A stretch of DNA of 64,000 bases from Cetorhinus maximus (taxonomy: Eukaryota), in the NCBI RefSeq assembly GCF_964194155.1, contig NC_135901.1:23188001-23252000 (forward strand), read 5' to 3'. How positions within the stretch are numbered: position 1 is the stretch's first letter; each line of letters begins with the position of its first letter. Below, one piece after another: positions 398-60,705 of the stretch. The position numbers and the translations under genes are program-made. The notes below the pieces were generated by a model. The model had not been told where the DNA came from, did no database searches, and saw only the letters and a list, made by a program, of their open reading frames with translations.

Positions 398-560
398 GTA
401 AAATAGTGTGAATGCTGGAATTCTGAAATAAAAACAGAAAGTTCTGGAAATCCTCAGCAGGTTTGGCAGCTTCTGTGAAGAGAGAGAAACAGATTTAACA
501 TTTCCAATCCAATATGATTCTTCTTCAGAACTGAGTATTTCCAGCATTCTGATTTCATTT
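398..560 (-). mobile_element. Penelope-derived short element (terminal-repeat fragment, partly inverted), degenerate hammerhead motif
   Basis: Matches the end of the Penelope element at 50982-51090. Minus strand reads AGTTCTGAAGAAGAATCATATTGGATTGGAAATGTT. Confidence 0.65.
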
Positions 561-699
561 TAAACACATAATTGATGTAAACTTTATTGTCCTTACAGGT
601 ATCTGGATGTAAATCTGATTTCAGACCTTCCTCTGAACAGTTTTCAAACTAACTCCAGCTCGTTGTCCATTCCTTCACTAAAGACCCGGATGGAAAACA

Positions 700-1150
700 C
701 TCAGCACAAGTTGGCGGCGGCTGGTTGCCCGGGTAACCCGGGCCTGTCACCGGGGAGGAAGCCCCGTCCTCACTCCTCTCTTCCCACATCAAGATGGCCG
801 CCTCTGCGCCTGGCTCCCTGAACAAGAGCCACCTTCCTCTCCCAAGATGGCGGCATCCGGTGAGCCCGGCTCCCAGTGCGCAGGTGCAGTGAGGGTGTGC
901 GCTCTGAGCATGCTCAGTGTCAGTCATGGTGACAGAGTGAGGAGGAGCGGACGGTGAGGGAGGAGATTGTGAGCACAGGGTAGGAATGGAAACCGCGGCT
1001 GGACTGGGAACTGGATCAACTTCTGGGGTAGGCCCCAGGCCCTAGGCCCCGTGTTTACCCCGCGGTGACAGGCCCGGGGGGAGGGAGCGATGGAGCCGCC
1101 GGCTGGACGGGGAGGATTTGGAAACACTTTGTGGATCCGCAAAGCGGCTG
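700..1150 (+). promoter_or_regulatory. CpG-rich promoter/first-exon region of the ZNF locus at 2.0-3.8 kb
   Basis: High CpG; YY1-like AAGATGGCCGC and AAGATGGCGGC; near-identical paralog of 885-1080 at 31007-31212. Confidence 0.6.
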
Positions 1151-1979
1151 CTCAGTTAGTGGTTAATGGAGATCAGAAACCCAGAGTCAGAGTGTCGAAC
1201 CCCACATTGGGTGGTTGTTTTATTAAATATCGTTATTTATTATTTATTTACTGAAGAATATGTTCATATATTTGTTTTAAAGTCATTTTATAGCATTTGT
1301 GAAAAGACCTATTAAAATACAATCCCCTGATGTATTTCTGATGAGAATTTGACTGACGAGGTTTTGAAGAACAGTCAATCCTAACATGATTGTGTTTTAA
1401 TTTACTCCCTAATACCAGATTTCAGCTTGTATTTCAAAACTTAATTTAGAATGTCAGTCCAGCAGCAAATGGTAAAATGAGATATAAGACACCAGTTGCA
1501 CTTGAAACCATCTCTGACTTTTCGTGTCCGACACTGTCCTTGTGCTGATGCAGGAAGTACTTCCTCTGGTGTTGTGGCACAAATAAATGCAGCCTCTCCC
1601 GGGAACAGGCCCATGTTGGTGGTCTTCATGTTTCAGCGGCGAGCAGAGCACGTGTGGTCATTGTGGTAATGCAACACAGAGTGGGTGGGACTTCAGGGGC
1701 CTGTGACCAGGAGAGAAAATTATTGACTCGTTGATTTTACTCTCACTCTGCACACAGGACAGAAAACTGAATTCAGCCAGTCTTGGGTGGGGGTGAGGGG
1801 AGCTTGGGGGGAAGCTCAGAGTGGAGACTTCAGATGGTGCAACAGGTTTGGATTCCAGCCTAGGGATGAGGGAGTGTGTGTGGGACAGGGATTTATAGCT
1901 CTGAGTAGATGAGAGGAAAAATGTTCCACAGAAACTAGAATTGTTTGTTCTGAATTAGTTTTGTAAATTCCTTTTCCAG

Positions 1980-3760
1980 GGTATTAGAAGAGGAGGATTT
2001 ACAGACAGGAAACTCAAACTAAACTTCACGTCAAGGTCTGACAGAGCCATTTGATTCATCACAACCTAAACAGGCAGCTCACCACCACCTTTTCAAGGGC
2101 AACTAAGGATGGACAATAAATATTGGCCCAGCCAGTGAAGCCCACATCCCGTGACCATGGAAGGAGAAATATTTCTCTCTTCTGTATGTGAAAGAAGATT
2201 TCAAAATTCAGTGTGACTGGAAAAGCACCAAGATACACACATATACCCGAGTCAGTGTGTTCCAGTGTAGTGACTGTGGAAAGAGGTTTAACCAGTTATT
2301 CTGCCTGAAAAAACATCACAGCAGGGTGAAATCATACACGTGTTCTGTGTGTGGCTGAGGCTTCAACTGATTGTCCAACCTGGAGAGACGCGAGGATGCC
2401 AGGTTCATGGAGAAACCGTGGAAATGTGAGGATTGTGGTAAAGGATTCAATTATCCATACCTGCTGGAAAACCATCGACGCAGTCACACTGGGGAGAGGC
2501 CATTCACCTGTTCAGTGTGTGGGAAGGGATTTACTCTGTCATCCCACCTACTTTTACACCAGCAAGTTCACACTGAGGAGAGACCTTTCAGCTGCACTTA
2601 CTGTGGAAAGAAGTTCTCGTGTTCCTCCAACCTCAATGCACATCAGCGAGTTAACATTGGGGAGAGACCATTCACCTGCTCCTTGTGTGGTAAGGATTTC
2701 ACTGGGCGAACCGGTCTTTTGTTACACCAGCGAATTCACACAGGGGAGAAGCCGTCCACCTGTTCCGTGTGTGGGAAGGGATTTACTTTGTCATCCAAAC
2801 TGCTCTCACACCAGAGAATCACACTGAGGAGAGGCCGTTCAGCTGCGCTTTCTGTGGAAAGAGGTTCAGATCTTCATCCAACCTCAATGCACACAAGCGA
2901 GTTCACACTGGGGAGAGGCCGTTCACCTGCTCTGTGTGTGGGAAGCAATTTACTAAATCATTCAGCTTTCTGTCACATCAGCGAATTCACACTGAGGAGA
3001 AGCCATTCAGCTGCACTCACTGTGGAATGAGTTTCAGGCAGTTATCAGCCCTCACTGCACATCAACGCGTTCACACTGGGGAGAGACCATTCACCTGCTC
3101 CGTATGTGGGAAAGGATTCATTCAATGCGGCAGCCTGAATTTACACCAACTCACTCACACTGGGGAGAGACCGTTCACCTGCTCTGTGTGTGGGAAGGGA
3201 TTCAAGCAGTCATCCCACCTGCTGACACACCAGTGAGTTCACACTGATGAGAGACCTTTTAAATGCCCAGACTGTGGGAAGTGCAATAAAAGTTCTGGGG
3301 AACTGATGTCCCATCAACGTGTTCACACTGATGAGAGACCGTTTAGGTGCTCTCACTGTGGGACTGGGTTCAAGCGATCATCTGAACGCATTGTGCACCA
3401 GCAACTTCACAGTGGGGAGAGGCTGTTCACCTGCTCCGAGTGTGGGAAGGGATTCACTCAGTCATCCCACCTGCTGACACATCAGCGAGTTCAAAACTGT
3501 CAAGAAACCTTTTAAATGTCCAGACTGTGGGAAGTGCTATAAAGGTTGCAGGGAACTGATGCACCATCAACGTGTTCAGACTGACGAGATACTGTTCAGG
3601 TGCTCTCACTGGGTTCAAGCAATCAGCTCCACTTATTGTATAGCAGTGAATTCACACTGGGGAGAGACCATTCACCTGCTCTGTGTGTGGGAAGAGATTC
3701 ACTCAGCCATCCCACCTGCTGACACACCAGTGAGTTCACAAGTAACGACTATGATTTTGT
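1980..3760 (+). pseudogene. C2H2 zinc-finger array gene, about 16 fingers, disrupted (at most a truncated ~5-finger product from ATG 2408)
   Basis: ORFs 2371-3030, 2769-3236 and 3306-3515 contain repeated CxxC..HxxxH with TGERP linkers. Frameshift near 2820; TGA at 3234, 3647 and 3731; family splice acceptor ttttccag at 1979. Confidence 0.85.
2073..2154 (+). mobile_element. 3' tail fragment of LINE family B inserted in the ZNF spacer region
   Basis: GGCAGCTCACCACCACCTTTTCAAGGGCAAC..CCCACATCCC matches the tail at 4620-4700. Confidence 0.7.
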
Positions 3761-3821
3761 TTTGCTGTTAACCACATCCAGGACTGAATCATGTTCATTG
3801 GGATCTGTTTTTATCTTCTTC

Positions 3822-4710
3822 AAAGGAAGATGGTTGTGGCTTTTGGAGGTCAATCATCTCAATCCCAGGACATCGCTGTAGGAGTTCCTCAGGGAAGTGT
3901 CCTGGGCCCAATCATCTTCAGCTGCTTCATGAATGACCTTCCCTCCATAAGGTCAGAAGTGGGGATGTTCACTGATGATTGCACAATGTTCAGTACCACT
4001 CATGACTCCTCAGATATTGAAGCAGTCGTGTCCAAATGCAGCAAGACCTGGACAACATTCAGACTTGGGCTGACACGGGGCAAGTTACTTTAGCTCCAAC
4101 AAGAGAATCTAACCATCTTCCATTAATGTTCAATGGCATTACCATCACTGAATCCTTCACTATTAACATCCTAGGGATTGCCATTGACCAGAAACTGAAC
4201 TGGAAAACCCCTAGATACAGTGTGGTGAAAAGAACAGGTTGAGATTGGGAATTCTGCAGCACGTTTCTTAGCTCCTGACTCTCCAAAGCCTCCCCAATAC
4301 CAAGAAGGCACAAGTCAGAAGTGTGATGGAATACTCTCCACTTGCCTGGATGAGTGTCGCTCTTGCACGGAGCAGCCCACTTGACTAGTGTCCAATCCAC
4401 CATGTTCAACATTCACTCGCTCCACAACCGATCCACAGTGACATCATCTACAAGGTGCGCTGCAGCAACTCACCTAGGCTCCTTCAACAGCTCCTTCCAA
4501 ACTTGCAAATCTACCACCTGGAAGGACAAGGGCAGCAGACACAAGAGAACACCACAACCTGCAAGTTCTCCTCCAAGCCAGTCACCATCTACACTACATG
4601 GACTACAGCGGTTCAAGGAGGTGGCTCACCACCACCTTCTCAAAGGCAGTTTTGGATGGGCAGTAAATGCTGACCTAGTCAGTGACATCCATACCTAATG
4701 AATGATGGAA
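3822..4710 (+). mobile_element. 5'-truncated non-LTR retrotransposon (CR1/L2-group, 'family B'), RT 3' half plus tail
   Basis: VPQGSVLGPIIFSCFMNDLP..MFTDDCTMF reverse-transcriptase motifs, frameshifted. Confidence 0.85.
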
Positions 4711-4728
4711 AGAGTATTGTTTTGTTGT

Positions 4729-4802
4729 CCTTCTCCTCTTCCTCCTCCTCCTCCTTCATCTCTTCCTCCTCCTCTTCCTCTTCCTCCTCCTCCTCCTCCT
4801 TC
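4729..4802 (+). repeat. (CCT/CTT)n polypyrimidine microsatellite
   Basis: About 75 nt of almost pure C/T trinucleotide repeats. Confidence 0.9.
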
Positions 4803-4887
4803 TGTAGACCTCTATGACTTGACTAAATCACTTTCAAACACAATATAAAATACCATTATGGCCACTCTTCCCTAGATGGCAATATTT

Positions 4888-7800
4888 AGAGTCATAGAGG
4901 TCTACAGCACTGAAGAAGGCCCTTTGGCCCATCGAGTCTGCGCCGGTCAAACAAGAACCAAACTATTCTAATTGCGTTTTCCAGCACTAGGCCCAGCCTT
5001 GTTTGCCATGGCATCGCAAGTGCACATCCAAATACTTCTTAAATGTTATGAGGGTTTCTGCCTCTATCACCCTTTCAGGCAGTGAGTTCCAGATTCCCAC
5101 CACCCTCTGGGTGAAAAAATTCTTCCTCACATCCCCTCTAAACCTCCTGCCCCTTCCCTTAAATCTATGCTCCCTGGTTAATGATCCCTCCATCAAGGGG
5201 AAAAGTTCCTTCCTGCCTTCCCTATTTATGCCCCTCATAATTTAATACACCTCAATCATGTCCCCCCTCAATTTCCTATGCTCCATGGAAAATAACCCCA
5301 GTCTACCCAATCTCTCCTCATAACTAAAACTCTCCAGCCCAGGCAACATCCTGGTAAATCACCTCTGCACTCTCTCTAGTGCAATCACATCCTTGCTATA
5401 ATGCGGATTCCAGAACTCCATGCAATACTCTAGCTGTGGCCGAACAGCATTTTATATAGTTCCAGCATAAGCTCCCTGCTCTTATATTCTATTCCTTGGC
5501 TAATAAAGGCCAGTATCCCATATGCCTTCTTAACCATCTTATCTACCTGTTCTGCTACCTTAAGGGACCGGTGGACATGCACACCAAGGCCCCTCTGATC
5601 CTCGGTACTTCCCAGGGTCAAATCATTCATTGTGTATTCCCATGTCTTTTTTGTCCTGCCCAAGTGCATCACCTCACACTTATCCAGATTAAATTCCATT
5701 TGCCATTGATCAGCCCATCTGACCAGCCTGTCTATATCCTCCTGTAATCTCAGGCTATCCTCCTCACTATTTACCACCCCACCAATTTTTGTGTCACCTG
5801 CGAACTTATTGATCAATCCTCCTAAATTCAAGTCTAAATCGTTCATATACACCGCAAACTGCAAGGGACCCAACACTGATCCCTGTGGAACCCCACTGGA
5901 CACAGGCACCCAGTCACAAAAACACCCCTCAACCATCACCCTCTGCTTCCTGCCACTCAGCCAATTCTGGATCCAATTTGCCAAACTGCCTTGGATCCCA
6001 TGGGCTCTTACCTTCATTATCAGTCTCCCATGCGGGACCTTATCAAATGCCTTCCTGAAGTCCAAGTAAACTACCTCAAATGCATTGCCCTCATCTACAC
6101 TCCTGGTCACCTCTTCGAAAAATTCAATCAAATTCGTAAGACATGACCTCCCCTTAACAAAACCATGCTGACTGTCCTTGATTAATCCCTGCCTCTCCAA
6201 GTGTAGATTAACTCTGACCTTCAGAATTGCTTCCAATAGTTTCCCCACCACTGAGGTTAGACTGACTGGCCTGTAGTTCCCTGGTTTATCCATTCCTCCC
6301 TTCTTGAATAACGGCACCACCTTGGCTGTCCACCAGTCCTCTGGCACATCTCCTGTGGCCAGAGGGGTATTGAAACTTATTGCCAGCGCCCCTGCCATCT
6401 CCTCCCTTGCCTCACTCAACAGTCTGGAATACATTCCATCCAGGCCCAGAAATTTATCTACTTTTAAGCCTGCCAGACCATTTAGAACCTCCTCCATTTC
6501 TATGCTAGTTTCTTCAATTATATCATAGTCCTCCTGCCTGATTTTCATACTCACGTCGTCCCTCTCACTTGTGAACACCGACACAAAGTATTAATTTAGA
6601 ACTCTACCTACATCTTCCGGCTCCACACACAAACTGCCACTATGGTCCTTAATGGGCCCTACTCTTTCCATAGTTATCCTCTTACTCTTCATGTACTTGT
6701 AAAATAACTTTGAATTTTCCTTTATTTTACCTGCCGATGTTTTCTCATGTCCCCTTTTTGCTCTCTAATTTCCTTTTTAAGTTCCTCCCTACACATTCTA
6801 TGTTCCTGTAGGGCTTCTGCTGTTTTGAGCCCTCAGTATCTGCCATAAGCCTCCCTCTTTCTCTTTATCTAATCCTGTATATCCCTCAACATCCAGGGTT
6901 CCCTGAACTTGCTGGTACCACCATCTTTCTGGAATATGTTGGCCCTGTACTCTCCCTATTGCCTTCTTGAATGAGTCCCACTGCTCTGACGCAGATTTAC
7001 CTAAAAGTAGCTGCTCCCAGTCCACTCTGGCCAAATCATATCTGATCTTATTAAAATTGGTCTTCCCCCAATTTTGAACTCTGATTTCTGGCCCATCCTT
7101 GCCCTTTTCCATAACAACCTTTAACCTAACGGAGTTATGATCACTATCTGCAAAACGCTCCCCCACTGATACCTCTACCATTTGCCCGCCTTCTCTCTTG
7201 TAGGACCTTCTACGTATTGGCTTAATAAGCTCTCCTGGATGCATTTTAAGAATTCCGCTCCCTCTAAACCTATCACAACCATGACTAACCCAGTTAATGC
7301 TGAGGAAGTTGAAATCGCCCACTTTTACTACCCTATTATTTTTACACTTCTCTGGAATTTGCCTACACATCTGCTCTTCTATTTCTCTCTGACTGTTTGG
7401 GGTCTGATTGCTGTGATTGCTCCTTTTTTGTTTTTCTGTTCTACCCATGTGGATTCACTTGAGGAGCCTTCTAAGATGTCATCTCTCCTTATTGCTATAA
7501 TTGATTTCTTGATCAATATTGCAATACCCCCTCCTCTCTTATCTCCTTCTCTGTCTTGCCTGAAGACCCTATATCCTGGAATATTGAGCTGCCTATCCTG
7601 GAATATTGAGCTGCCGATCCTGCCCCTCTATCAACCACATCTCTGTGACAGCAATGACATCATACTTCCATGTGTTAATTTGTGCCCTCAACTCATCTGC
7701 CTTATTCATAAGACTCCTTGCATTAAAATAAAAACCATCCAACCTTGCCGAACTCCCTTGTGCCTTAACTGGCCTATAATTTCTATGCCTTCCAGACTCA

Positions 7801-8385
7801 CTTGCTCTCCCTTCTAATTTTGGCTGTGCATCTCCCCCTGCTGAACTTCCTCTAAGGATCGCATCTCCCTGCTAAGTTCTTTTAAACCCTCCCCAACAGC
7901 ACGAGCAAAGCTCCCCACAAGGATGTTGGTCCCATTCCGGTTCAGATGCAACCCGTCCACCTTGTACACGTTCCACCAGAAACGGTTCCAGTGTCCCAGA
8001 AATCTAAAGCCCTCTCTCCAGCCACACATTCATCTGGACTAACCTCCTATTTCTATACTCACTAGTGCATGGCACTGGAAGTAATCCAGAGATTACTGCC
8101 TTTGAGGTCCTGTTTTTTAATCTGCTACCTAGCTCCCTAAATTCTGCTTGCAGGATCTCTCTTTCTACCTATGTCATTTGTCCCAATATGTACCACGATC
8201 TGTCTGTTTGCCCTCTCCCTTTCGAATGCCCTGCACCGCTCAGTGACATCCTTGACCCTGGCACCAAGGAGGCAACATACCATCCTGGAGTCACATCTAC
8301 GGCCGCAGAAACGCCTGTCTGTTCCCCTTACTATTGAGTCTCCTACCACTATTGCTCTTCACCTCTTTTTCCTCCCCCTCGTGCA
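4888..8385 (-). mobile_element. CR1 LINE, near full-length and decayed (ORF1 esterase, ORF2 APE endonuclease + RT)
   Basis: ORF 5430-6584 is RT (NYRPVSLTS, YLDFRKAFDKV, VPQGSVLGP). 6798-7448 is APE (GDFN, SDH). 8137-8349 is SGNH esterase (VGDSIVRG, HIGTND). Confidence 0.95.
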
Positions 8386-8929
8386 GTTGAGCACTGGACC
8401 CTTGGACATTTGTTGGTTGATTTCCTTCTCCGCCGTTGCATTCAGAGCAAAATGAGTCACCAGTGGAAACCACTGCTTGCCTTGCTCTAATAAGAGATTT
8501 GGATGTACAATTACTGCATGTCTGGCCAGCTCAACCAGTAAAGCAAAACTTTGCTGCTTTAATGCGTTAAGCCCAACTCTCCATTTCTGTGGCAGTAACA
8601 TCACTCTGAAACTGAGCTTTTCTCCTGCACGCTTTTGTTAATATCAATATTTCTGCTTTATGAGTGAAAACTCTCCTCTGCTTCACTGGAAGCACAAGAC
8701 ATGTTTGTAGCTGAGGCCGAATGTATAATGAATGATAAAACTTTAAAACAAGAAGTTCCAGTCAAGCCCCTATATCAACAAAACTGCTCTGAGTCACAGA
8801 ATTAGAATGGCCACTTCCTGGGGGACCAACAGCAGCTGGTGAACATTAAACCTGATCCAGAGTGGAATGATCTGATACATCAGATTGGGGACAGGATTCG
8901 GGAGCTCCCCTTGAACATTATTCACATCA

Positions 8930-10300
8930 AAATGAGCGAGGAGGAAGGATTGGATACAATGGGTTTGTATTCTTTGGAACAGGGAAGGCTCAGGGGAAAT
9001 TTAATTGTGGTGCATTAAAATTGTGAGGGACATAGATACAGTGGATAGGGAGAACTTATTTCTGTGAGCAATGAGATCAATAACCAGGGGCTTAGATTTA
9101 GGAAGAAAGAAATCCTCACATTTATGTAGCACCTTCCACCACCCCTGGAATCCCAAAACACTTTACAGTCAGTGAAGTTCTTGTTGTAAAGTAGGAAACG
9201 CAGCAAACTCTCACAAGCAGCAACATAATAATGACCAAATCATCTGTTCTTGTGATGTTGGTTGAGGAATAAATATTGGCCTGAGCGCAGAACCCTGTTC
9301 ATTGTCAAAATTAGTGATCTTTTACATCCATCTTAAATAGCAGAGGGGGCCTCAGCTTAACATCTTATGGCATAAATGGCAGCACCTCCAATGGTGACAC
9401 ACACACACTCAGTATTCTGCCAGCCCAGATTGCTGTGCTCATGTCCTGCAATCAGATTTTGAACTCATAACGTACTGACTTAGAGGTGAGAGTGTCTGAC
9501 CCACGGTTGACTAATCAATCCAAATTATCCTAATTGGTGGATGGATTAGAGCAGAGTTGTGGAGTAATTTATTTCTCATGGGGGGGGATGGGGGTGGGGA
9601 CCTGGGAATCACTGCTTGAGCTGGTGGTGGAGGCAAAATCCTCCTTTGAATTAAAGAAAGGAGCACTTGGGAAAAACACCTGAGGCGCCACAATCTTCAG
9701 AAGAGCTAAAACGTGGGATTAGACCAGATTGTTCTGTTTCTGCTGGCATGGACACTATGGATGGAATGGTCTCCTCCTGGCCCGTAAATACTTCTATCTT
9801 TAAATCATAGAATCTTGACAGCACAGAAGAAGGCCATTCGGCTCATCGTGTCTCTGCTGGCTCTCCTAAGGAGTAATTTATGTCCTGCCACTCCCCCACC
9901 CTCTCCCCACATCCCTGCACATTCCTGCCTTTGAGGTGTTTAGAAAATTCAGAAATTGTAGAAATGTTTATGGCACAGAAGGAGGCCACCCGGCCCACCG
10001 TGTCTGTGCCAGATGGAAAACGAGTCACCCAGCCCAATCTCATTTTCCAGCTTGGTCCATAGCCCTGGAGGGTAAGGGACTTCAGGTGCATATCCAGACC
10101 CCCTGGTTTCTGCCTCTCCTCCCCTTTCAGACAGGGAGTTCCAGACCCTTTGCAGCCTCTGGCTGATTTCCCCCCCCCCCCCCCCCCCCACCAAATCTCT
10201 AATCCTTCCAACAATCACTTTAAATCTATGCCCCCCTCCACCACCACCCCTACCCCGCCCTCTAGTCACTGACCTCTCTCCTAAGGAAATAGTTTACATT
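8930..10300. mobile_element. Cluster of short CR1 3'-end fragments in both orientations
   Basis: 8930-9100 and 9540-9800 (+), 9805-10290 (-) resemble the CR1 3' end at 4888-5330. Confidence 0.7.
9105..9510 (-). mobile_element. Deu-domain SINE (SacSINE1/AmnSINE-like), decayed
   Basis: Reverse complement aligns by eye to the copy at 22941-23392, including the L2-type tail. Confidence 0.65.
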
Positions 10301-10599
10301 TCAGGTCTATGATCTTTTATCAGAAATGTTATCAGAAGTGACCTCAAACATTAACTCCATTTCTCAAACTACAGATGCTGCCAGATATGCTCAGCATTTT
10401 GTCTTTTTACCTCCAGTTAAAGAAGTTGCTCCCAAATTGCACATTAGATTTATTGCTGTCTAACTTATAATTATTATCATATTTCCACCATTCTGGGCTT
10501 TTAATTCAGATTCCAAGAATCTACATTGTTTTGCTTTTCTTTAACTGTGGAGTGCTGAGAATGTGGAGCTCATTACCAGAAGTGTTTGAGATCTCCATG

Positions 10600-11800: not shown

Positions 11801-12189
11801 TTTGAATTTCAATCCTGGACTGACAGCGATAACTTCTGTAAACTCCTTTTACAGGTGGTTAGGAGTTCCAGACGGGAAAGTCATAACAAACATCATGTCA
11901 AGATCTGACAGTCACTTAATTCACCAGGACCTGAATATCATTGGCCTTTGAATGTGGAAGGTGAAGTATTTGCTCTGTGGGAGAAGATTTCAAACATCAG
12001 TGTGACTGGAAAAGCACCAAGGCACACACACCTGAGTGAGAGTGTTCCAGTATACTGGCTGTGGAAAGAGCTTTAACCACTTACACAGCCTGAAAAACAT
12101 ATTGAACCATTCACTTTGGGGAGACACTGTACTGGTGGATGAGGCTTCCACTGATCATTCAACCTGGAGAGATACATGGACACTACACC

Positions 12190-12918
12190 ATGGAGAAACC
12201 ATTGAAATGTGGGGACTGTGGGAAAGGATTCACTTTCCCATCCCAGCTGGAAACTCATCAACGCATCCACACTGGGGTGAGGCCATTCACCTGCTCTGTG
12301 TGTTGGAAGGGATTCACTCGCTCATCCAACCTAGCATTACACCAGCGGGTTCACACTGGGGAAAGGCCTTTTACCTGCTCTGTGTGTGGGAAGGGATTCA
12401 TTAATTCATCCAACCTAGTGTCACACCAGCGAGTTCATACTGAGGAGAAACCATTCAGCTGCACTTCCTGTGGAATGAGCTTCAGACTTTCATCCACCCT
12501 GCAGCAACACCAGCGAGTTCACACTGAGGAGAAACCATTCAGCTGCACTGACTGTGAAAAGAGCTTCAGGCATTCTAGCAGCTTCATTGTACACCAGCGA
12601 GTTCACACCGGGGAGAGGCCGTTCACCTGCTCCATGTGTGGGAAAGGATTCACTCAGTCATCCAATCTAGCATTACACAAGCGAGTTCATACTGGGGAGA
12701 GACCGTTCACCTGCTCCATTTGTGGGAAGGGATTCACTGATTCATGCCAATTGCTGAGACACGAACGAGTTCACACTGGAGAGAGACCGTTTACCTGCTC
12801 CAAGTGTGGGAAGGGATTTCCTGATTCATCCCAATTGCTGAGACACCAGCGAATTCACAAGTCACTGCAGGAGTTGGGTTCTGCTGTTATGGACACTGTT
12901 AATTCCAACCAGGCCTGA
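12190..12918 (+). CDS. C2H2 zinc-finger protein, 8 tandem fingers, 242 aa
   Basis: Uninterrupted ORF. ACC-ATG-G start ([10 protein letters not shown]), canonical linkers, family 3' UTR follows. Confidence 0.85.
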
Positions 12919-13368
12919 ATCATGATCATACTGATTGGTCAGGCTTGTTTCTTCTCATAAACTCCAGCCTAGATACAGGGATTATTAATATTCTGTATCT
13001 ATAGCTGATTGTGTTTTCAGGGCTGCACTGTCCCTTTAAGAACCACTGTCTGTGATCCTTCCCCATAATTCAGGAACTCTCTTCAGAAATTAGTTTACAA
13101 CAAGATCACGAACTTTTACTTCAATCCTAAATTAATCTTTGGTACAAACTCTACAATTCAGTGTCTGAAAGGTCCACTGATTAACATTCCTGATTAGAAA
13201 GTGCTGATTAATCCTTGTTGACAATTCTTACTGACTTGCACATTACAAACAGTGACACCTCCATTATCCAGCAGAAAGAAGGGGAATGGGATTTGGTGGA
13301 GAATCGAGAGTCCCCAAATTTACCCCATCCCATCTGGTAAAGTCAAAGTAACAAGCCAGGTAACGGAC

Positions 13369-13932: not shown

Positions 13933-13934
13933 AC

Positions 13935-15295: not shown

Positions 15296-16021
15296 ATTTG
15301 TCAGTCTGGTTCCCCTCAAGCTGCTGAGTGAATGAATTAAATCTTTCTTCATAAATCACCCGGATACCAGACTACAAGTCAGGCCATGAGCATTGTTTAT
15401 TGTTTCCAAATCACAGTGAAATGTGGGCACACAGACCCTTTCTAGACGTGTCTAAATGTAATCAGAGTTATCCAGCAGTTCAGCACTAATGGGGAGAGCT
15501 ATTTCACAAAACAAGGAACAAAGACTCCAGAGGATGTTCAGTGATTCACTGTAAATCAGCACGAATGGATGCTGAGTATTAATTACAGCAGGGAGCAGAG
15601 TCTGAGGTTATCAATTGGTGAGTTTATTGTCAGAGTAATTCCTTCAATATCTGACAAGTTAACAGCTTTGAACAGCCCGTCTCTCAAATAGCTCGATCCT
15701 ATTACAAACATTCAGAGCTTACTGAGCCTCATCCTCGAGTTACAGAACAGACTTTCTCCTGTCAACATAGAGATGCAGGATTGGACTGTGATCTGTTTCT
15801 TGTTCATCTTTAGTTCAATACAGCTTCTGAGTGATTTACATTTCAGACAAGGTTTGCAGGTGTAAAGGTCTTTTCACACATGTATGAGAGAGGCTGTGGG
15901 GTACACACAAAGTCCAATTGGGCAATTTATATATGCAATGAACTCCAACTATCAGAATGAACACGGTTCAGCTGTGGATGTGATTAATAGCAGCGATAAC
16001 AGCAGAATCCCACCCCTGTGA

Positions 16022-16489: not shown

Positions 16490-16692
16490 CTGGAAAATGA
16501 ATTGAAAACAGAAAAAGGGGAACATGAGAGAGAGAAGCCACAACAACACAAAGGCAGGTTGTGAAATTGAGCTGAATGCATCTGGTAATTTGTTGGGCTG
16601 ACACCAGGAAGAAGTGACCATGAAAATTCCTGGATTGTCATAAAAACCCAACTGGTTCACTAATGTCCTTCACGGAATGGAACCCACTGGAC

Positions 16693-17569: not shown

Positions 17570-18075
17570 ATAAAACAAGAGCAAAACCCTGATGCTGGAA
17601 ATCCAAAAGATAAAGAGAAAATGCTGGAAATCCTTAGCAAGTCAGGTGAGTTCCTGCAGCATCTGTGGAGAAGGAAACAGAGTTAATGTTTCAGCTGAAG
17701 CTTAGTGTGAAAAGTTTCTCTGCAGAAGCTGAGGATTTCCAGCAGTTTCCGTAAGGTTTTGATAGAGACAATACAGTGAGAATGGGGGCAGAACAAAACT
17801 GAGACCATCAATATAAGATAGTCACAAGAAACCCAACAGGGAATTCAGAAGAAACTTCTTTACCCAAAGAGTGGTGTGAATGTGGAATTCACTACCACAG
17901 GGAGTGGTTAAAGTGAATAGTCAAAATGAATTTAAAGGGAATCTGGACAAGCATATGACAGAGAAGGGAATAGATGGTTACGATGGTAGACTTAGAGGAT
18001 AAAAGATGAGAGGAAGTTCGAGTGGAGCATAAATACTGGCAGGGAGTGTTGGGGCCGAATGGCCTGTTTATGTGT
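17570..18075. mobile_element. Penelope-derived short element (17570-17750) followed by a CR1 3' fragment (+)
   Basis: GATGCTGGAAATC..GGAAACAGAGTTAATGTTTCAG motif, then CR1 tail ending GGCCGAATGGCCTGTTT. Confidence 0.65.
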
Positions 18076-26919: not shown

Positions 26920-27090
26920 ATAAAAGCAAAATACTGTGGATGCTAGAAATCTGAAACAAAAACAGGAAATGCTGGAAAAACTCAGCAGTAGACCTCAGCA
27001 GTAAAATCTCAGCAGCTAGACGCAGCATCTGTGGAGAGAGAAACAGAGTTAATGTTTCAAACCCGTATGACCCTTCTTCAGAGCTCTTCT
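26920..27090 (-). mobile_element. Penelope-derived short element with hammerhead-like motif
   Basis: Minus strand CTGAAGAAGGGTCATACGGGTTTGAAACATTAACT. Confidence 0.75.
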
Positions 27091-30999: not shown

Positions 31000-31640
31000 A
31001 GGAGTCCAGTGCGCAGGTGCAGTGTGGGTGTGCGCTCTGAGCATGCTCAGTGTCAGTCATGGTGACAGAGTGAGGAGGAGCTGACGGTTCGGGAAGCGGG
31101 AGGAGATTGTGAGCACAGGGTAGGAATGGAAACCGCGGCTGGCCTGGGAACTGGATCAACTTCTGGGGTAGGCCCCAGGCCTCGTGTTTACCCCGCGGTG
31201 ACAGGCCCGGGGTCAGCGGGCTCACTGGCCGCCATCTTGCGAGTGGGAGTAAGGGCGGATCCGGGAGGCGGGGCTTCCTCCCCGGTGACAGACCCGGGTC
31301 ACAGAAACAAAACTTGCTGGAAAAACTCAGCAGGTCTGACAGCATCTGGGGAGAGAGACAGAGTTAACGTTTCGAGTCCATATGATTCTTCTTCAGAATT
31401 GAAGAGAAGTATAAATGTGGTGAAATATATACTGTTTAAGGGGGAGGGGGGTGGGGTGGTGGGAATAGGTAAAGCTGGATAGAAGACCAGTGATAGGTGG
31501 AGACAAAGGAGAGTCAACTTACCCAGGCCGCCGCCATCTTGGGAGAGGGAGGCGGGGCTTGTTCAGAGAGTGGGGCTCTTGGGCGGCCATCTTTGTGAGG
31601 GAAGCGGCAGTGGGCGGGGTTTCAGGGACCCACAGGTCTG
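31000..31640 (+). promoter_or_regulatory. Paralog of the 0.7-1.1 kb promoter, rearranged and interrupted by a Penelope end (31300-31519)
   Basis: 31007-31212 near-identical to 885-1080; YY1 blocks occur in reversed orientation. Confidence 0.7.
31300..31519 (-). mobile_element. Penelope terminal fragment with hammerhead motif
   Basis: Colinear with 50990-51200; minus strand CTGAAGAAGAATCATATGGACTCGAAACGTTAACT. Confidence 0.8.
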
Positions 31641-41911: not shown

Positions 41912-42140
41912 AAAGGCAAAGTACTTCAGATGCTGGAAACCTGAAATAAAAACAGAAAATTCTGTGATTCTCAGCAGGTCTGGTAGCATTGTGGAGAGAA
42001 AACATAGTTTACATTTCAGGCCTGTGACCTTTCAAAACTGCACTGCATCAGTTCACAGAACTGAAACATTAACGATGTTTTCCAATCCACAGATGCTTCC
42101 AGATGTGGGATGTATTAGAAGCATTTTCTGTTTTTATACC
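41912..42140. mobile_element. Decayed palindromic Penelope-derived element
   Basis: Same inverted arrangement as 55369-55621. Confidence 0.65.
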
Positions 42141-42369
42141 TGGTTGCAGAAATTGCTCCTGATTTGCACATTAGAATTAATAGTGATTAACTTATATTTA
42201 TTATCATCTGTCCACAAGTGAAAGCATCTCCCACTTGTCTATCCTGTCGAACACTTTCATAATGTTAGAGTCCTCAATGAGGTCATCTCTCACTTTCCTT
42301 TCCAGAGAAAACATCTCCAATTTGTTCAATCTTTGTTGATTGGTATAACCTCCTCGTTCTCGCATCATT

Positions 42370-47230: not shown

Positions 47231-47624
47231 GCACTTCGCCAAGGTGAAGAATCTCCAAAACTCTTCCAGTTTGGGTAAAGGGTCACTGACCAGAAACATT
47301 CACTCTGTTTCCCTCTTCATAGATACGGTTTAACCTGCTTGGTTTCCGACATTTTCTTGTTTGAGTTTGGATTTCCAGCATATGCCATATTTTGAGTCAC
47401 TGTGGATCAGTTTTCTTTCACTTAATGTGAGCTTTTCAAGCTTCAATTGAGCAAACATTCACAAGATACACAATGAACAATAGAAATGGTTACGTCTTAG
47501 GAGGCCATTTGATCCACCTTATCCATGCTGGCAGGAAAAGAGCAACGCATTCTAAATTCTTCCTCCATAGGTCTGTAGGTTATGGCACCTCAAATGTTTT
47601 CCCAAGTTGAATTGTTTGTTTTGC

Positions 47625-50981: not shown

Positions 50982-53207
50982 AAAGAAAAACAGAAACAGA
51001 AATACCTGGAAAAACTCAGCAGGTCTGGCAGCATCGGCGGAGGAGAGCACAGTTGACGTTTCGAGTCCTCATGACCCTTCAACAGAACTAAGTAAAAATA
51101 GGAAAGGGGTGAAATATAAGCTGGTTTAAGGCGGGAGGGGGGGTGGGGTGGTGTGGTTGTTGGGACAAGCAGCCAGTAATAGGTGGAGATAACCAAAAGA
51201 CGTCACAGACAAAAGTGCAAAGAGGTGTTGAAGGTGGTGATATTATCTAAAGGAATGTGCTAATTAAGAGTGGAAAGCAGGACAGATAAGGTACAGATAG
51301 CTCTAGTGGGGGTGGGGGAATACTAAAAGTGCTAAAAGGTAGAGATAAACAATGAGTGGAAATACATTTAAAAATAATGGAAATAGGTGGGAAAAGAAAA
51401 GTCTATATAAGTTATTGGAAAAAACAAAAAGGAGGGGGAAGAAACGGAAAGGGGGTGGGGATGGAGGAGAGAGTTCAAGATCTAAAATTGTTGAACTCAA
51501 TATTCAGTCCGGAAGGCTGTAAAGTGCCTAGTCAGAAGATGAGGTGCTGTTCCTCCAGTTTACGTTGAGCTTCACTGGAGCAATGCAGCAAGCCAAGGAC
51601 AGACATGTGGGCATGAGAGCAGGGTGGAGTGTTGAAATGGCAAGCGACAGGGAGGTCTGGGTAATGCTTGCGGACAGACTGAAGGTGTTCTGCAAAGCGG
51701 TCACCCAGTCTGCGTTTGGCCTCTCCAATGTAGAGGAAACCGCATTGGGAGCAACGAATGCAGTAGACTAGGTGAGGGAAGTGCAAGGGAAATGCTGCTT
51801 CACTCGAAAGGAGTGTTTGCGTCCTTGGATGGTGAGGAGAGAGGAAGTGAAGGGGCAGGTGTTGCATCTTCTGCGGTCGCATGGCAAGGTGCCGTGGGAG
51901 GGGGTTGAGTAGGGGGTGATGGAGGAATGGACCAGGGAGTCACGGAGGGAACGATCCCTACGGAATGCCGCCAGGGTGGGTGAAGGGCAGATGTGTTTGG
52001 TGGTGGCATCATGCTGGAGTTGGCGGAAATGGTGGAGGATGATCCTTTGAATGCGGAGGCTGGTGGGGTGATAAGTGAGGACAAGGGAGACCCTATCATG
52101 TTTCTGGGAGGGAGGAGAAGGCATGAGGGCGGATGCGCGGGAGATGGGCCGGACACGGTTGAGGGCCCTGTCAACCACCGTGGGTGGAAAACCTCGGTTA
52201 AGGAAGAAGGAGGACATGTCAGAGGAACTGTTTTTGAAAGTGGCATCATCAGAACAGATGCAACGGAGGCAAAGGAACTGAGAGAATGGGATGGAGTCCT
52301 TACAGGAAGTGGGGTGTGAGGAGCCGTAGTCGAGGTAGCTGTGCAAGTCGGTAGGCTTGTAATGGATATTGGTGGACAGTCTATCACCAGAAATTGAGAC
52401 AGAGAGGTCATGGAAGGGAAGGGAAGTGTCAGAGATGGACCATGTGAAAATGATGGCGGGGTGGAGATTGGAAGCAAAGTTAATAAATTTTTCCAGGTCC
52501 CGACGAGACCATGAAGCAGCACCGAAGTAATCATCGATGTACCAGAGAAAGAGTTGTGGGAGGGGGCCGGAGTAGGACTGGAACAAGGAATGTTCCACAT
52601 ACCCCATAAAGAGACAGGCATAGCTGGGGCCCATGCGGGTACCCATAGCCACACCTTTTATTTGGAGGAAGTGAGAGGAGTTAAAGGAGAAATTGTTCAG
52701 TGTGAGAACAAGTTCAGCCAGACGGAGGAGAGTATTGGTGGATGGGGATTGTTCGGGCCTCTGTTCAAGGAAGAAGCAGAGAGCCGCCAGACCATCCCGG
52801 GGGGGTGGATGGAAGTGTAGAGGGATTGGACGTCCATGGTGAAGTTGGGGCCAGGGAACTGGAAATTGTTGATGTGACGTAAGGTGTCAGAGGAATCACG
52901 GATGTCGGTGGGAAGGGACTGGACAAGAGGAGAGAGAAGGGAGTCAAGATAGCGAGAAATGAGTTCCGTGGGGCAGGAACAGGCTGACACGATCGGGCTG
53001 CCGGGACAGTCCTGTTTGTGGATTTTGGGTAGGAGGTCCAAGGTTGGGCGACTATCAGGTTGGAAGCTGTGGAAGGAAGATCTCCAGAGGAGATGAGGTC
53101 AGTGACAGTCCTGGAAACAATGGCTTGATGTTCAGTGGTGGGGTCATGGTCCAGGGAGAGGTAGGAGGAAGTGTCTGCGAGTTGACGCTCAGCCTCCGCG
53201 AGGTAGA
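50982..53207 (-). mobile_element. Penelope-like element, 5'-truncated (RT + GIY-YIG endonuclease, frameshifted)
   Basis: LPKIHK..PIVS, MDVQSLYTSI, AMGTRMGPSYACLFM, YIDD; VYCIRCSQCGFLYIGEAKRRLGDRFAEH..PVACHFN. Confidence 0.95.
51051..51089 (-). ncRNA. Minimal type-I hammerhead ribozyme motif in the Penelope terminal repeat (core variant CUGUUGA)
   Basis: AGTT-CTGTTGA-A-GGGTC-ATGAG-GACTC-GAAAC-GTC-AACT: stem I AGTT/AACT, stem II, GUC cleavage triplet. Confidence 0.6.
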
Positions 53208-54875: not shown

Positions 54876-55368
54876 GTTGGCTAGCAGAAAACAGAAACAT
54901 CATAAATGGCTCTTTTTCTGATTAACAGGATGTGACAAGTGGAGTCCCGCAGGGGCCTGTGCTGGGGCCTCAACATTTTCTAATTTATATCAATGACTTA
55001 GAAGAGGGGAGTGAAGGCAGCCAGCTAAATTTGCAGATGACACAAAGATAGGTTGGAAAGTATGTTGTGAAGAGGACATAAGCAGGTTGCAGACAGATAT
55101 AGATGAGTTGAATGAGTGGGCAAAAAATCTGGCAAATGGAGTAAAATGTTGGAAGTGTGAACTTGTTCACTTTGGCAGGAAGAATAAAAAAGCAGAGGAT
55201 TACTTAAATGGAGAATAGCTGCAGGATTCCAAGGGGCAGAGGGATCTAGGTGTTCTAATGTATTCGTCACAAAAAGTTAGGATGCAGATACAGCAAGTAA
55301 TTAAGAAAGCTAATGGAATGCTATCCTTTATTATGAGAGCAATTAAACATAAAAGTAAGGATGTTATG

Positions 55369-55621
55369 ATAAAAGCAAAATACTGCAGATGCTGTAAATC
55401 TGAAATAAAAACAGAAAATGCTGGAAAAACTCAGCAGGTCTGACAACATCCGTGGAGAGAGAAACTGGGTTAACGTTTCGAGTCTGCCTGACTCTTCAGA
55501 GCTAAAGAGAAGTCTCTTCAGCTCTGAAGAAGGGTCATACGGACTCGAAACGTTAACCCTGTTTCTCTCTCCACAGATGCTGTCAGATCTGCTGAGTTTT
55601 TCCAGAATTTTCTGTTTTTAT
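55369..55621. mobile_element. 253-bp palindromic Penelope-derived element with 13-bp TSD
   Basis: Inverted arms ~55405-55503 / 55520-55621; TAAGGATGTTATG at 55356-55368 and 55622-55634. Confidence 0.9.
55520..55558 (+). ncRNA. Minimal hammerhead ribozyme motif with intact catalytic boxes
   Basis: CTGAAGA (55524-55530)-A-GGGTC-ATACG-GACTC-GAAA-CG-TT; stem I weak in this copy. Confidence 0.6.
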
Positions 55622-56454
55622 TAAGGATGTTATGCTTCTGTTATACAGGGCATTGGTGAGACAACATCTCGAACCTTGCGTGCAGTTTTGGTCTCCTTAT
55701 TTAAGGAAGGATGTAAATGCATTGGAGGTGGTTCAGAGGAGGTTTACTAGATTGATACCTGGAATCAGTGGGTTGTCTTATGAGGAAAGGTTAGGCAGGC
55801 TGGGCTTGTTTCCACTGGAGTTTAGAAGAGTGAGGGTGACTTGATTGAAGTATATAATATCCTGAATGGTCTTGACAAGGTGGACGTGCAAAGGATGTTT
55901 CCGCTTGTGGGTGAGTCCAGGACAAGGGGGCACTGTTTTAAAATTAGGGGTTTCCCTTTAGGACAGAGGAGAAATTTTTCTTTGTGGGCTGTGTGACTTT
56001 GCCTCCGAAGGTCATCGAATATTTGTAAGGCAGAGGTAGGGAGACTCTTGTTTAGCAAGGGAATCAAAGGTTATCAGGGGTAGATGGGAATGTGGAATTC
56101 AAAACACATACAGATCAGCCATGATCTTATTGAATGGGTGAGCAGGCTGGAGGGGCTGAATGACCGACTCCTGCTCTTAGTTTGCATGTTCATATGTACA
56201 TAGTTAGCTCAAACCAAGACAAATGTTTGTCTGTTCTCAATTTTTATCCTAGAGTGACAATGATGGTATTTGGAAACCCCTTTTACAAGATATTAAAAGG
56301 GGAGAATTTGCCAACAGGAAACTCAAAACCAAGCATCACGTCAAGAAACAACAGCATCACTCGATCCAGCAGGACCGGGATATTATCAGCCTCTGAGTGT
56401 AAGCACTGAGTTTCAGATTATTACTACTCACTGTGTAAAAATGTTTTTCCTCAC

Positions 56455-58290: not shown

Positions 58291-59350
58291 GGGGATTAGA
58301 AGCGGAGGATTTGCAGTCGGGAAACAAACCAAATATCACATCAGCATCTGATGGAGTCACCCAATTTATCGTAACCTGAATACCGTAGAACTTTGAACAT
58401 GGATGGAAAAAGCACTGTTCACAGTGGAGAGAAACCATGGAAATGTGGGGATTGTAAGGAGAGATTCAGTTACCCATCTGAGCTGGAAACTCATCGACGC
58501 ACTCACACTGAGGAGAGGCCGTTCACCTGCTCTACATGTGGAAAGGGATTCACTTGCTCATCCCAGCTGATTACACACCAGCGAGTTCACACTGGGGAGT
58601 TCACCTGCTCAGAGTGTGGGAAGGGATTCACTCAGTTTCCAACCTGCTAACATACCAGCGCATTCACACTGGGGACAGGCCATTCACACTTTTCAATGTC
58701 CAGACTGTGGGAAGTGCTATAAAAGTTCTGGGGACCTGATTACCCATCAACGTGTTCACACTGATGAGAGACCTTTCAGGTGCTCTCACTGCGGGACTGG
58801 GTTCAGGGGATCATTTCAACTCACTGTACACCAGTGAATTCACACTGATGAGAGACCTTTCATCTGCTACATGTGTGGGAAGGGATTCACTCAGTTATCC
58901 CATGTGCTGAGGCATGAAAGAGTTCACACTGATGAGAGACCTTTTAAATGCTTGGACTGCGGGAAGTGCTATAAAAGCTCGGGGGAACTGATGTCCCATC
59001 AACGTATTCACACTGACGAGAGACCGTTCAGGTGTTTTTACTGTGGGGCTGCATTCAGGGGATCATCTCAACTTTCTGTACATCAGCGAATTCACACTGG
59101 GGACAGGCCATTCACCTGCTCTGAGTGTGGGAAGGGATTCACTCAGTCATCCATACTGCTGAATCACCAGTGGGTTCACACTGGGGAGAGGCTGTTTAAT
59201 TGCTCCGAGTGTGGGAAGAGATTCACTCAGTCGTCCCACCTGCTCAGGCACCAGCGAGGTCACACAATGGAAAGTCGTTCACCTGCGCCAGGTTTGGGAA
59301 GAGATTCAGTCAGTCATCCATACTGCTGATTCACCAGTGAGTTCGCAAGT
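58291..59350 (+). pseudogene. C2H2 ZNF, about 11 fingers, frameshifts and stops
   Basis: ORFs 58393-58650, 58616-58837 and 58871-59329; TGA at 58835 and 59338; acceptor at 58290. Confidence 0.85.
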
Positions 59351-59529
59351 AACTACAGTGATTGGATTTTCTGTTAATCACATCCAGGACTGAAATATGC
59401 TTATTGGGATCTGTTTCTGCTGATGTTAATAAACTCCACACCATTAAAGGATATAATATTCAGGATAAAAGTCAAATAACTCACCTTTGTGCTAAACATA
59501 TAGTGTGTCGTGTCTTTTTAATATCTCTA

Positions 59530-60125
59530 ACACAGGTTAGTTCCTTTTGAAGTGATTTTCCTCTCCCCTGTCTCCACCATCCTCACCTCCGACAACAAGT
59601 GCAATGAGTTCATGGAGCTTCTTTGACACTAAGATTGAGACAATTTGATCAGCTGCCTCTCTGCTTCCTTCCCTTCCATTATCCCACCGGGCCAAACTGT
59701 CTAAAGCTCCTTCCTGCTGCAGCCCTGAACCTGCTTCTTTCTTTAGATTCTCTCCAATCTTCTCTCATGCCCTCTCAGAGCTTATCTTTTCCATAAAACC
59801 CGTCCTCCCTCACTATTCCCATCAAACTACAGATCACCCAACTTCCCCATGTTCGTTGATATTGTTAAAAGTTATCTCTCTTCAGCTACTGTCCTTCATT
59901 CCTTTCAATCTGTCATCATCACCCACTCCTCCATGATACAAACCCTTGACCCCAATGCCCTTGCAAAATACTGCCCCATCTCTAACCACCCTTTCCTTTC
60001 CAAAGTCATTGTCACCTCTCAAATCCATGCACATTTTCCCCAGAACTCCATGTTTAAATCCTTTCAATGAGATTTCTGCACCTGTCACAATATCAAAACA
60101 GCTCTTACTGAAGTCACAAATTACA
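59530..60125 (+). mobile_element. L2 ORF2 fragment directly after the ZNF polyA region
   Basis: TLDPNALAKYCPISNHPFLSKV L2-type motif. Confidence 0.75.
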
Positions 60126-60559
60126 TTCTGGTTACATCTAATTATAGCCAGAGAATCACCTGCAGTAACTGTGATTATTTTATTTACATTTTTACATACT
60201 GACTCTCTGGGTAAGTGATTAGGTGTCACTGAACTTTGACATAAAAATGTTCCATTATCACTCTCACTGTGACTGTATCTTGCAGGCCAAGTCCTTTCAA
60301 CTACAGCAGCTCTTCTGGATTCGATCAACAGGGAAAAGTGAAGACATGACAGTCCACAACCCAAGCTCACCGCTAATTGATAATTTCCATTTAAATACAA
60401 AGCATAGCTGAACATCTGTGTATTGCTCTGTTACAGACTTATTGAAACAGATTCTTTGCCAAGATTGGCCAACAGCTCCATTATTGAAGGATGTGGATGA
60501 TAGGAGATGGATCTTGGTTTTTCTTATTTTGCAATCCTGATGCCAGTAGAATCTCATCT

Positions 60560-60705
60560 TCACTTTCCCAGATTCAGACAAAGATCCGAAAAAGGGTCAT
60601 ACGGACTCGAAACGTTAACTCTGTTTCTCTCTCCACAGATGCTGCCAGGCCTGCTGAGTTTTTCCAGCATTCTCTGTTTTTATTTTAGATTTCCAACATC
60701 CGCAG
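60560..60705 (+). mobile_element. Penelope-derived short element
   Basis: CCGAAAAAGGGTCATACGGACTCGAAACGTTAACTCTG.. matches 55524-55621. Confidence 0.8.

What the first reader, a model, noticed from the sequence alone, without database searches (positions are those of the whole stretch)
398..60705. Dispersed family of short Penelope-derived elements built around a minimal hammerhead ribozyme
Seen: about ten 90-250 bp copies (398, 10320, 17570, 26920, 31300, 41912, 47270, 50982, 55369, 60560) share one sequence that is also the terminus of the Penelope element. The best copies read AGTT-CTGAAGA-A-stem II-GAAACG-TH-AACT. The stem-II loop varies (ATACG, ATGAG, AGGCA, ATATG) while the arms mostly keep pairing (GGGTC/GACTC, GAGTC/GACTC). 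Known: Penelope-like elements carry minimal type-I hammerheads whose palindromic helix III is thought to work as a dimer, and non-autonomous hammerhead 'retrozymes' exist in metazoans. Inference: a high-copy non-autonomous ribozyme-bearing family that is usually annotated only as an anonymous repeat.
Basis: partly seen in the sequence, partly recalled or inferred. Interest (0 to 1): 0.7.

Follow-up and report, generated by a model that had tools for sequence, protein, structure and literature searches.

The report
Penelope end stubs, not retrozymes
These short repeats are the ends of a known kind of jumping gene (Penelope) with a mostly decayed copy of its hammerhead self-cutting RNA motif; they are likely dead-end by-products of that element's copying rather than a separate ribozyme parasite, and their shared start point likely marks where its RNA begins.

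Summary
The repeats are real: 12 profile hits at the 10 named places. An unbiased 1.39-Mb sample gave 144 hits (about 400,000 in the genome) and a reversed control gave 0. They match the terminal ~135 nt of endonuclease-bearing Penelope-like elements, with a minimal type-I hammerhead motif on the sense strand, a known feature. A separate non-autonomous retrozyme family is not supported. There are no head-to-tail arrays, no column separates short from long copies, and the same subfamily has ORF-bearing copies. Only 5 of 94 copies keep a strict core, which decays about like the tail. 5' ends pile up at the first base of helix I (15 of 75, 0.9 expected), about 30 nt behind a TATA-like box (44 of 48 long copies), not at the cut site. 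Head-to-head pairs carry one long and one short 3' end in 33 of 34 cases (control 9 of 16). Likely mechanism: two-ended target-primed copying that starts inside the RNA and runs off its 5' end. The youngest subfamily has a non-canonical core (A6 to U). Cleavage is untested. The scan found this before on other DNA, in this genome and others.

The parts
50982..53207 (-). 5'-truncated, frameshifted Penelope-like element (RT, CX4CxxC linker, GIY-YIG, 3' pLTR with hammerhead motif, short-type 3' end)
   Evidence: 94% to a longer natural copy over 2257 nt; GIY-YIG PF01541 E 7e-5; an 880-aa relative has RVT_1 E 9e-7 and the linker motif
51051..51089 (-). Minimal type-I hammerhead motif of the young subfamily; helices I and II intact, core CUGUUGA (A6U), predicted cut after GUC
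   Evidence: 6,925 exact copies of the 38-nt motif in the genome, control 0
51086..51119 (-). Predicted core promoter: TATA-like box about 30 nt upstream and initiator-like TTAGTT/TCAGTT whose A is the first base of helix I
   Evidence: TATA-like start at -32..-28 in 44 of 48 long copies; promoter function inferred, initiator consensus recalled
55369..55622 (.). Head-to-head pair: long arm (-) 55513->55369 and short arm (+) 55510->55622, flanked by a 13-bp target-site duplication (55356-55368 / 55622-55634), lying in a CR1-like repeat (class of the host repeat recalled)
   Evidence: a transcript would fold into one long hairpin, -164.5 kcal/mol, z -23
55520..55558 (+). Hammerhead motif with canonical CUGAAGA core but only two helix-I pairs
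   Evidence: 149 exact copies of its first 38 nt in the genome
400..562 (-). Stub: long arm (-) from helix I (532) plus a ~30-nt vestigial second arm (531-562 +); possible 11-bp duplication with 1 mismatch
26921..27085 (-). Stub starting at the first base of helix I, with an internal duplication; 16-bp target-site duplication (1 mismatch) and 3 extra bases at the 5' junction
60582..60705 (+). Stub starting at the first base of helix I; core decayed (CCGAAAA)
   Evidence: three 95-97% matches on the same contig that include query flank bases, probably segmental duplicates
31301..31506 (-). Ordinary 5'-truncated copy with ~100 nt of upstream pLTR (TATA-like box present), CUGAAGA core
41912..42147 (.). 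Old head-to-head pair (- arm 42041->41912, + arm 42055->42147), core decayed
10290..10414 (+). Old decayed copy; shares its right flank with the 41912 pair (probably duplicated with the ZNF cluster)
17578..17695 (-). Old copy that starts downstream of the 5' core box
47268..47395 (+). Old stub, core decayed (TGGGTAA)

Best explanation
The repeats are the terminal 100-135 bases of endonuclease-bearing Penelope-like elements, and they are likely dead-end products of the autonomous elements' own copying, not a family that spreads by itself. Shown: the same motif-plus-tail sits at the 3' end of long copies and also just upstream of the ORF; short copies begin preferentially at the first base of hammerhead helix I; paired arms have one long and one short 3' end. 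Inferred: the element's RNA starts at that base (TATA-like box at about -30). Inferred: the enzyme nicks both target strands and starts reverse transcription at two internal sites about 100 and 135 nt into the repeat, as shown in vitro for the anole element. When it uses the repeat copy at the RNA's 5' end it would run off after 100-135 nt, and the two cDNAs would join head to head, or one would stay vestigial. The hammerhead is likely kept by selection only in the autonomous masters, where it would cut slowly as a dimer or with protein help; in the stubs it decays.
For: HHR+tail lies upstream of the ORF in L112, L127, L128 and L132 and at the 3' end of the long copies. 5' ends at positions 0..+2: 15 of 75 arms that reach that far, 0.89 expected from the upstream truncation rate, p 1.5e-14; 11 of 67 in the well-assigned subset. 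Of 520 young-subfamily motifs with a purine just before helix I, 30 were examined and 29 lack the upstream pLTR. TATA-like box at -32..-28 in 44 of 48 long copies from four upstream clusters. Only 4 of 144 arms start at 34-38, around the predicted cut. 33 of 34 mutually nearest divergent pairs have one long and one short 3' end, against 9 of 16 convergent control pairs; 15 of 15 close pairs do, each with its own junction. Target-site duplications next to +1 starts: 6 of 24 vs 0 of 133 controls, 3 of 12 vs 0 of 132. No diagnostic column between 12 short and 8 long CUGAAGA copies, and that subfamily has ORF-bearing copies. Core vs tail divergence at non-CpG sites 4.5% vs 7.1% (p 0.11) and 2.2% vs 3.3% (p 0.38); CpG sites inside the motif 40% decayed in the older group. 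5 of 94 copies keep a strict core, 30 of 94 if position 6 is free. Literature: two internal RT start sites, both strands extended, HHR cutting not needed for insertion (PMC11167929); inverted 5'-truncated copy and one-sided tail (PMC8557442); TATA+Inr-like motifs in a rotifer pLTR (PMC3846280).
Against: No RNA 5'-end data: the four runs laid are contigs whose RNA status is a guess, and they cannot show starts or cuts. The 0..+2 bin was chosen after seeing the data, and local-alignment ends can pile up where an unknown subfamily's upstream differs; the young-subfamily test reduces but does not remove this. An extra cap-derived G was not established: G before +1 in 10 of 19 mostly AGCT-type copies, where fold-back gives the same letter, but 6 G and 6 A in 12 solo young copies. 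Most +1 stubs show no scored target-site duplication (18 of 24). The core is slightly, though not significantly, better kept than the tail in both groups, and the samples are small. In D. virilis the promoter is reported TATA-less, the start lies upstream, and an intron ends at helix I (PMC2377424; PMC4209133), so the pyrimidine tract + AG here could be a splice acceptor instead.
Confidence: 0.72

Rival explanations
1. A non-autonomous, retrozyme- or SINE-like family that starts at the hammerhead is transcribed and copied in trans by the Penelope enzyme.
For: Very high copy number; 104 of 144 arms end within 60 nt upstream of the motif; 79 of 91 arms assigned to the CUGAAGA group are short; sharp shared 5' end; stubs keep the tail that the enzyme likely binds. 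A preprint argues that animal retrozymes derive from pLTRs (10.64898/2026.07.22.740005).
Against: No private substitutions in short copies. Stubs that start at +1 have lost the TATA-like box. Only 6 same-strand pairs within 1 kb among 144 arms and no head-to-tail array at unit spacing, apart from one duplicated core-less piece in L179. Junctions differ pair by pair. Core decays. A head-to-head pair would fold into a long hairpin that hides the motif.
Confidence: 0.12
2. The 5' pile-up comes from the junction step, not from the RNA start: cDNA ends fold back or anneal at the short palindrome AGCT at helix I, or at the foot of the structure.
For: Many junctions extend the AGCT palindrome; the pile-up is strongest in the AGCT-bearing group (8 of 30 exact copies vs 2 of 30 in the AGTT group); palindromes at inverted junctions are read as self-priming in PMC3846280.
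Against: The young subfamily has non-palindromic AGTT yet gives hundreds of +1 starts; the TATA-like box sits at the expected distance in 44 of 48 long copies.
Confidence: 0.2
3. The pyrimidine tract + AG at helix I is a splice acceptor, and stubs are copies of spliced RNAs whose upstream exon ends in AG.
For: All four upstream clusters have a pyrimidine tract ending in YAG, some with a CTAAC-like word; an intron ends at helix I in D. virilis (PMC4209133).
Against: No shared upstream exon among +1 stubs. Where a target-site duplication is resolved it lies 0-3 nt from the AG, leaving no room for an exon.
Confidence: 0.1

Closest known systems
Minimal type-I hammerheads (min-HHR) of metazoan Penelope-like elements (Cervera and de la Pena 2014, PMC4209133; read: abstract, results, discussion, start of methods; supplements not seen)
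   Same: 4-bp helix I, bulged base before helix II, G10.1-C11.1, palindromic 15.2-16.2 with no helix III, located in the pLTR, most copies dispersed as single motifs that the paper already ascribes to truncated elements, several consensus families per genome.
   Different: Helix II is 5 bp; the youngest subfamilies carry U or C at core position 6; about 400,000 arms against the 4,000-9,000 descriptor hits reported there for coelacanth and frog (different counting method).
EN+ Penelope-like elements, Neptune/Nematis type, and their insertion units (Craig et al. 2021, PMC8557442, Introduction and passages; Arkhipova et al. 2013, PMC3846280, passages)
   Same: RT followed by a CX4CxxC linker and C-terminal GIY-YIG, pLTRs, frequent 5' truncation, inverted 5'-truncated partner, 30-40-bp tail at one end only, TATA+Inr-like motifs in the pLTR.
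   Different: Here the one-sided tail is counted in an unbiased sample (33 of 34 pairs), and the 5' ends pile up at helix I, which I did not find in the passages read. Neptune vs Nematis was not resolved (no tree).
PAc, Poseidon element of the green anole (Frangieh et al. 2024, PMC11167929; main text and start of methods read)
   Same: Two internal start points that define the tail; both strands extended; hammerhead at the pLTR-ORF junction; no RNA ends seen at the cut site.
   Different: In PAc the ORF starts inside the hammerhead; here the first in-frame ATG lies roughly 170 nt after the start of the motif, and the protein has the Zn-finger-like linker.
Non-LTR retrozymes of animals (Cervera and de la Pena 2020, PMC7229834, passages; Li et al. 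preprint 10.64898/2026.07.22.740005, main text)
   Same: Short, non-coding, carry a type-I hammerhead, related to pLTRs.
   Different: Retrozymes are head-to-tail repeats of 150-450 bp with intact, mostly canonical ribozymes and circular RNAs; these copies are dispersed, single or head-to-head, with minimal and mostly broken motifs.

Membership tests
Minimal type-I hammerhead of PLEs | Core boxes CUGANGA and GAAA...UH in type-I order | tested here: met
   Met by the older subfamilies (CTGAAGA 26, CTGATGA 8 of 94 copies); young subfamilies depart at position 6 (CTGTTGA 21, CTGCCGA 9, CTGCTGA 5); only 5 of 94 copies are strictly intact.
Minimal type-I hammerhead of PLEs | Helix I and II pairing, G10.1-C11.1, bulged base after A9 | tested here: met
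   90.9% of cells paired vs at most 49% for slid controls in 43 copies preselected for intact boxes; C-A mismatch in helix I of the AGCT group (11 of 35 distinct rows).
Minimal type-I hammerhead of PLEs | Covariation beyond relatedness | tested here: inconclusive
   2 pairs with two-sided change (U-A to C-G, G-C to A-U) but not above shuffles (75-427 of 500).
Minimal type-I hammerhead of PLEs | Palindromic positions 15.2-16.2 allowing a dimeric helix III | tested here: met
   ACGT/AACGTT; predicted self-duplex -3.1 and -5.6 kcal/mol for two natural copies, but the co-fold minimum is not the ribozyme fold.
Minimal type-I hammerhead of PLEs | Self-cleavage | not testable with these tools
   No raw RNA reads were offered; genomic 5' ends do not peak at the cut site (4 of 144).
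EN+ Penelope-like element (Neptune/Nematis type) | One ORF with RT, Zn-finger-like linker and C-terminal GIY-YIG | tested here: met
   880-aa natural ORF: RVT_1 E 9e-7, GIY-YIG E 0.002, both just under the curated cut-offs; CPRRRCNTC linker; window copy GIY-YIG above cut-off.
EN+ Penelope-like element (Neptune/Nematis type) | pLTR at both ends, inverted truncated partner, one-sided tail | tested here: met
EN+ Penelope-like element (Neptune/Nematis type) | Placement by RT phylogeny | not tested
   No reference PLE proteins were on hand; the clade label rests on the linker motif and PMC8557442.
Non-LTR retrozyme | Head-to-tail repeats with two or more complete hammerheads | tested here: not met
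   6 same-strand pairs within 1 kb among 144 arms, none a unit-spaced array with hammerheads; arrays elsewhere in the genome were not searched.
Non-LTR retrozyme | Own non-autonomous lineage distinct from the autonomous element | tested here: not met
   No diagnostic column, 12 short vs 8 long copies; ORF-bearing copies in the same subfamily.
Non-LTR retrozyme | Abundant unit-length linear or circular RNA | not testable with these tools
   Only assembled contigs were available.

The most novel reading that the evidence does not exclude
In these elements the hammerhead is the very first 39 bases of a TATA-driven transcript, and each insertion is built from two cDNAs started at two fixed internal sites. 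Several hundred thousand genomic junctions then record the start site and the two-ended mechanism in vivo. The most successful recent subfamily did this with a core in which A6 is replaced by U or C, so fast self-cutting is dispensable or supplied with protein help.
Probability: 0.5. Interest if true: 0.55.

Novelty: new member of a known kind. Interest (0 to 1): 0.3.

Why it matters
As a ribozyme finding it is ordinary: minimal hammerheads in Penelope ends, scattered as single truncated copies, have been in print since 2014. The value is mechanistic. How Penelope-like elements copy themselves, and what the hammerhead is for, are open questions. The stubs give a testable start-site prediction and in-vivo support for the two-start-site model that was shown in vitro for one lizard element. 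They also point to a natural position-6 variant for a simple cleavage assay.

Tried and rejected
Rfam scan: no hammerhead family matched, 5 weak unrelated hits. Monomer folding of 7 window stretches: none folds better than shuffles (z from -1.05 to +2.17) and none gives the full ribozyme fold. PDB sequence search with the window's RT frame: 0 hits; Pfam missed that frame too. RNA: 24 runs listed, all assembled contigs. Four were laid on L116:2900-3790; they cover the repeat but pool many copies, table 6 lists no start or end pile-up, and the joints shown are not informative, so no inference was drawn. Ribozyme cleavage as the source of stub ends: rejected, 4 of 144 starts at 34-38. Palindromic MITE-like family: rejected, junctions differ in all 15 close pairs. 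The apparent peak of starts at 26-30 was set aside as partly an artefact of older subfamilies with a different helix II. Rows dropped: 50 of 144 arms did not span the motif and were left out of the core census; one search used only the 32 and 35 well-assigned copies of two groups and excluded CpG and sub-lineage columns, and it stopped on a script error after those results (remaining parts rerun); one search used 41 of 44 preselected sample copies plus 2 window copies. Lunse et al. 2017 on dimeric cleavage is not held and is known to me only through a review. One paper id recalled from memory was wrong and was not used. Literature searches turned up no paper on shark Penelope hammerheads, on A6U cores, or on stub ends at helix I; the library lacks most subscription papers, and supplements of PMC4209133 and the preprint were not seen and may list such motifs.
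Full report
Setting. The window lies on contig C24 of a 3.99-Gb animal assembly, in a cluster of C2H2 zinc-finger genes with many retrotransposon remains. It looks like a shark genome; that label is my impression and matches earlier notes, and I did not test it.

Observation. Natural copies used as seeds hit all ten named places. A profile iterated from them gives 12 arms in the window and none in reversed sequence. The shared sequence is the sense-strand 3' end of a Penelope-like copy at 53207->50982. It reads helix I (4 nt), a 7-nt core box, a bulged A, a 5-bp helix II, GAAA, CG, UH and helix I, which is the minimal type-I layout of PMC4209133. The quoted best-copy string occurs in none of the 12 arms: 2 keep both boxes and CGUH, one more has intact helices with U at position 6, and the rest are broken or truncated.

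The parent. A search with the window's Penelope copy returned 2-kb relatives at 91-95% identity. Several have long open frames; one of 880 aa has RT and GIY-YIG matches just under the Pfam cut-offs and a CX4CxxC linker, the mark of the Neptune and Nematis clades. In four loci the motif and its tail also stand upstream of the ORF, so the repeat is the pLTR-ORF junction region as well as the 3' end.

Unbiased sample. I took 139 stretches of 10 kb at round coordinates on the large contigs. They hold 144 arms in 72 stretches, about 104 per Mb. That extrapolates to roughly 400,000 arms, or 320,000 insertion events when pairs are merged. Several subfamilies differ in core and upstream sequence. The youngest has CUGUUGA, with 6,925 exact 38-nt copies against 149 for the CUGAAGA version found at 55520. 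A natural A6C hammerhead is reported to cut slowly (PMC3088659, passages).

Is the ribozyme kept in the copies? Mostly not. 5 of 94 arms that span the motif keep a strict core, and 30 do if position 6 is free. Within two groups the core diverged 4.5% and 2.2% at non-CpG sites against 7.1% and 3.3% in the tail, neither significant, and CpG sites in the motif are 40% decayed in the older group. Pairing is high (90.9%, slid controls at most 49%), and two helix-II pairs show two-sided changes between subfamilies, but covariation does not exceed shuffles. This fits selection in the masters and neutral decay after insertion.

Is there a separate short family? I find no sign of one. Twelve short and eight long CUGAAGA copies differ at no column, and same-strand neighbours within 1 kb are few (6 pairs) and not arrays. 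Long copies of that subfamily carry RT or endonuclease remains upstream in 6 of 14 and 6 of 12 cases. The 15 close head-to-head pairs each have their own junction. A transcript of the 55369 pair would be one long hairpin. Retrozymes are defined as head-to-tail repeats with intact ribozymes and circular RNAs; that test fails here.

What makes the stubs. 3' ends fall into two classes near 100-110 and 130-135, with 70 and 74 arms. Divergent nearest pairs have one of each in 33 of 34 cases, and convergent control pairs in 9 of 16. This is the one-sided tail of PMC8557442 and PMC3846280. It matches the two internal RT start sites and two-strand extension shown in vitro in PMC11167929. 5' ends pile up at the first base of helix I: 15 of 75 arms at 0..+2 against 0.89 expected. 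In the young subfamily, 29 of 30 examined motifs with a purine before helix I lack the upstream pLTR. Target-site duplications flank such starts above chance (6 of 24 vs 0 of 133; 3 of 12 vs 0 of 132). The predicted cut site is not a preferred end (4 of 144). A TATA-like box starts 28-32 nt upstream in 44 of 48 long copies. I infer that the RNA starts at helix I and that copying from the 5' repeat runs off that end. Fold-back at the AGCT palindrome and a splice acceptor at the same AG remain rivals. A cap-derived G was not established, and the RNA data on offer cannot show starts.

Prior work. The motif class, dispersed single copies and inverted units are in print. My searches found no paper placing stub ends or the transcription start at helix I, or reporting the A6U core. 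This scan has noted all of these points before: 1,958 notes in at least 60 genomes hold the search words, and 46 notes in this genome fit. I had formed the start-site reading before the first look-up. Those notes are unchecked and are not counted as support.

Verdict. Real repeats and a real known motif; not a new ribozyme-bearing family. Interest is modest and rests on the mechanistic record in the junctions and on the position-6 variant.

Noticed in passing
L179:8127 and L179:8215: Two same-strand ~70-nt pieces that start at about position 66 of the tail, lack the hammerhead and share the same 15 upstream bases; 6 of 144 arms start at 65-69.
   Followed up: partly
window 51079-51085 (-) and genome-wide: Young subfamilies replace core A6 by U or C (35 of 94 sampled copies read CTGTTGA, CTGCCGA or CTGCTGA) while still spreading.
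   Followed up: partly
window 2330-3760, 12100-12920, 16020-16670, 19700-20600, 23640-24560, 38060-38780, 58420-59370: Cluster of C2H2 zinc-finger exons on both strands, several with frameshifts or stops; signs of unit duplication (975-1123 resembles 31115-31266; shared flanks at 10320/41912 and 398/31300).
   Followed up: no
window 22254-22756, 32327-32652, 61151-61425: Tandem repeats of 66, 66-67 and 55 bp; the first is open on both strands. A CTGATGA...GAAA word lies at 22090 just upstream with too short a stem to judge.
   Followed up: no
window 63045-63331 (-): Older Penelope endonuclease-region fragment, 69% to the young family.
   Followed up: no
L012, L095, L265, L266; window 531-562: Apparent solo stubs often carry a 15-45-nt vestige of the second arm between the target-site duplication and helix I, so true solos may be rarer than counted.
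   Followed up: partly
window 5430-6590 (-) and others: CR1/L2-type RT frame of 386 aa (RVT_1 E 3e-31; class recalled); several stubs sit in such repeats.
   Followed up: no
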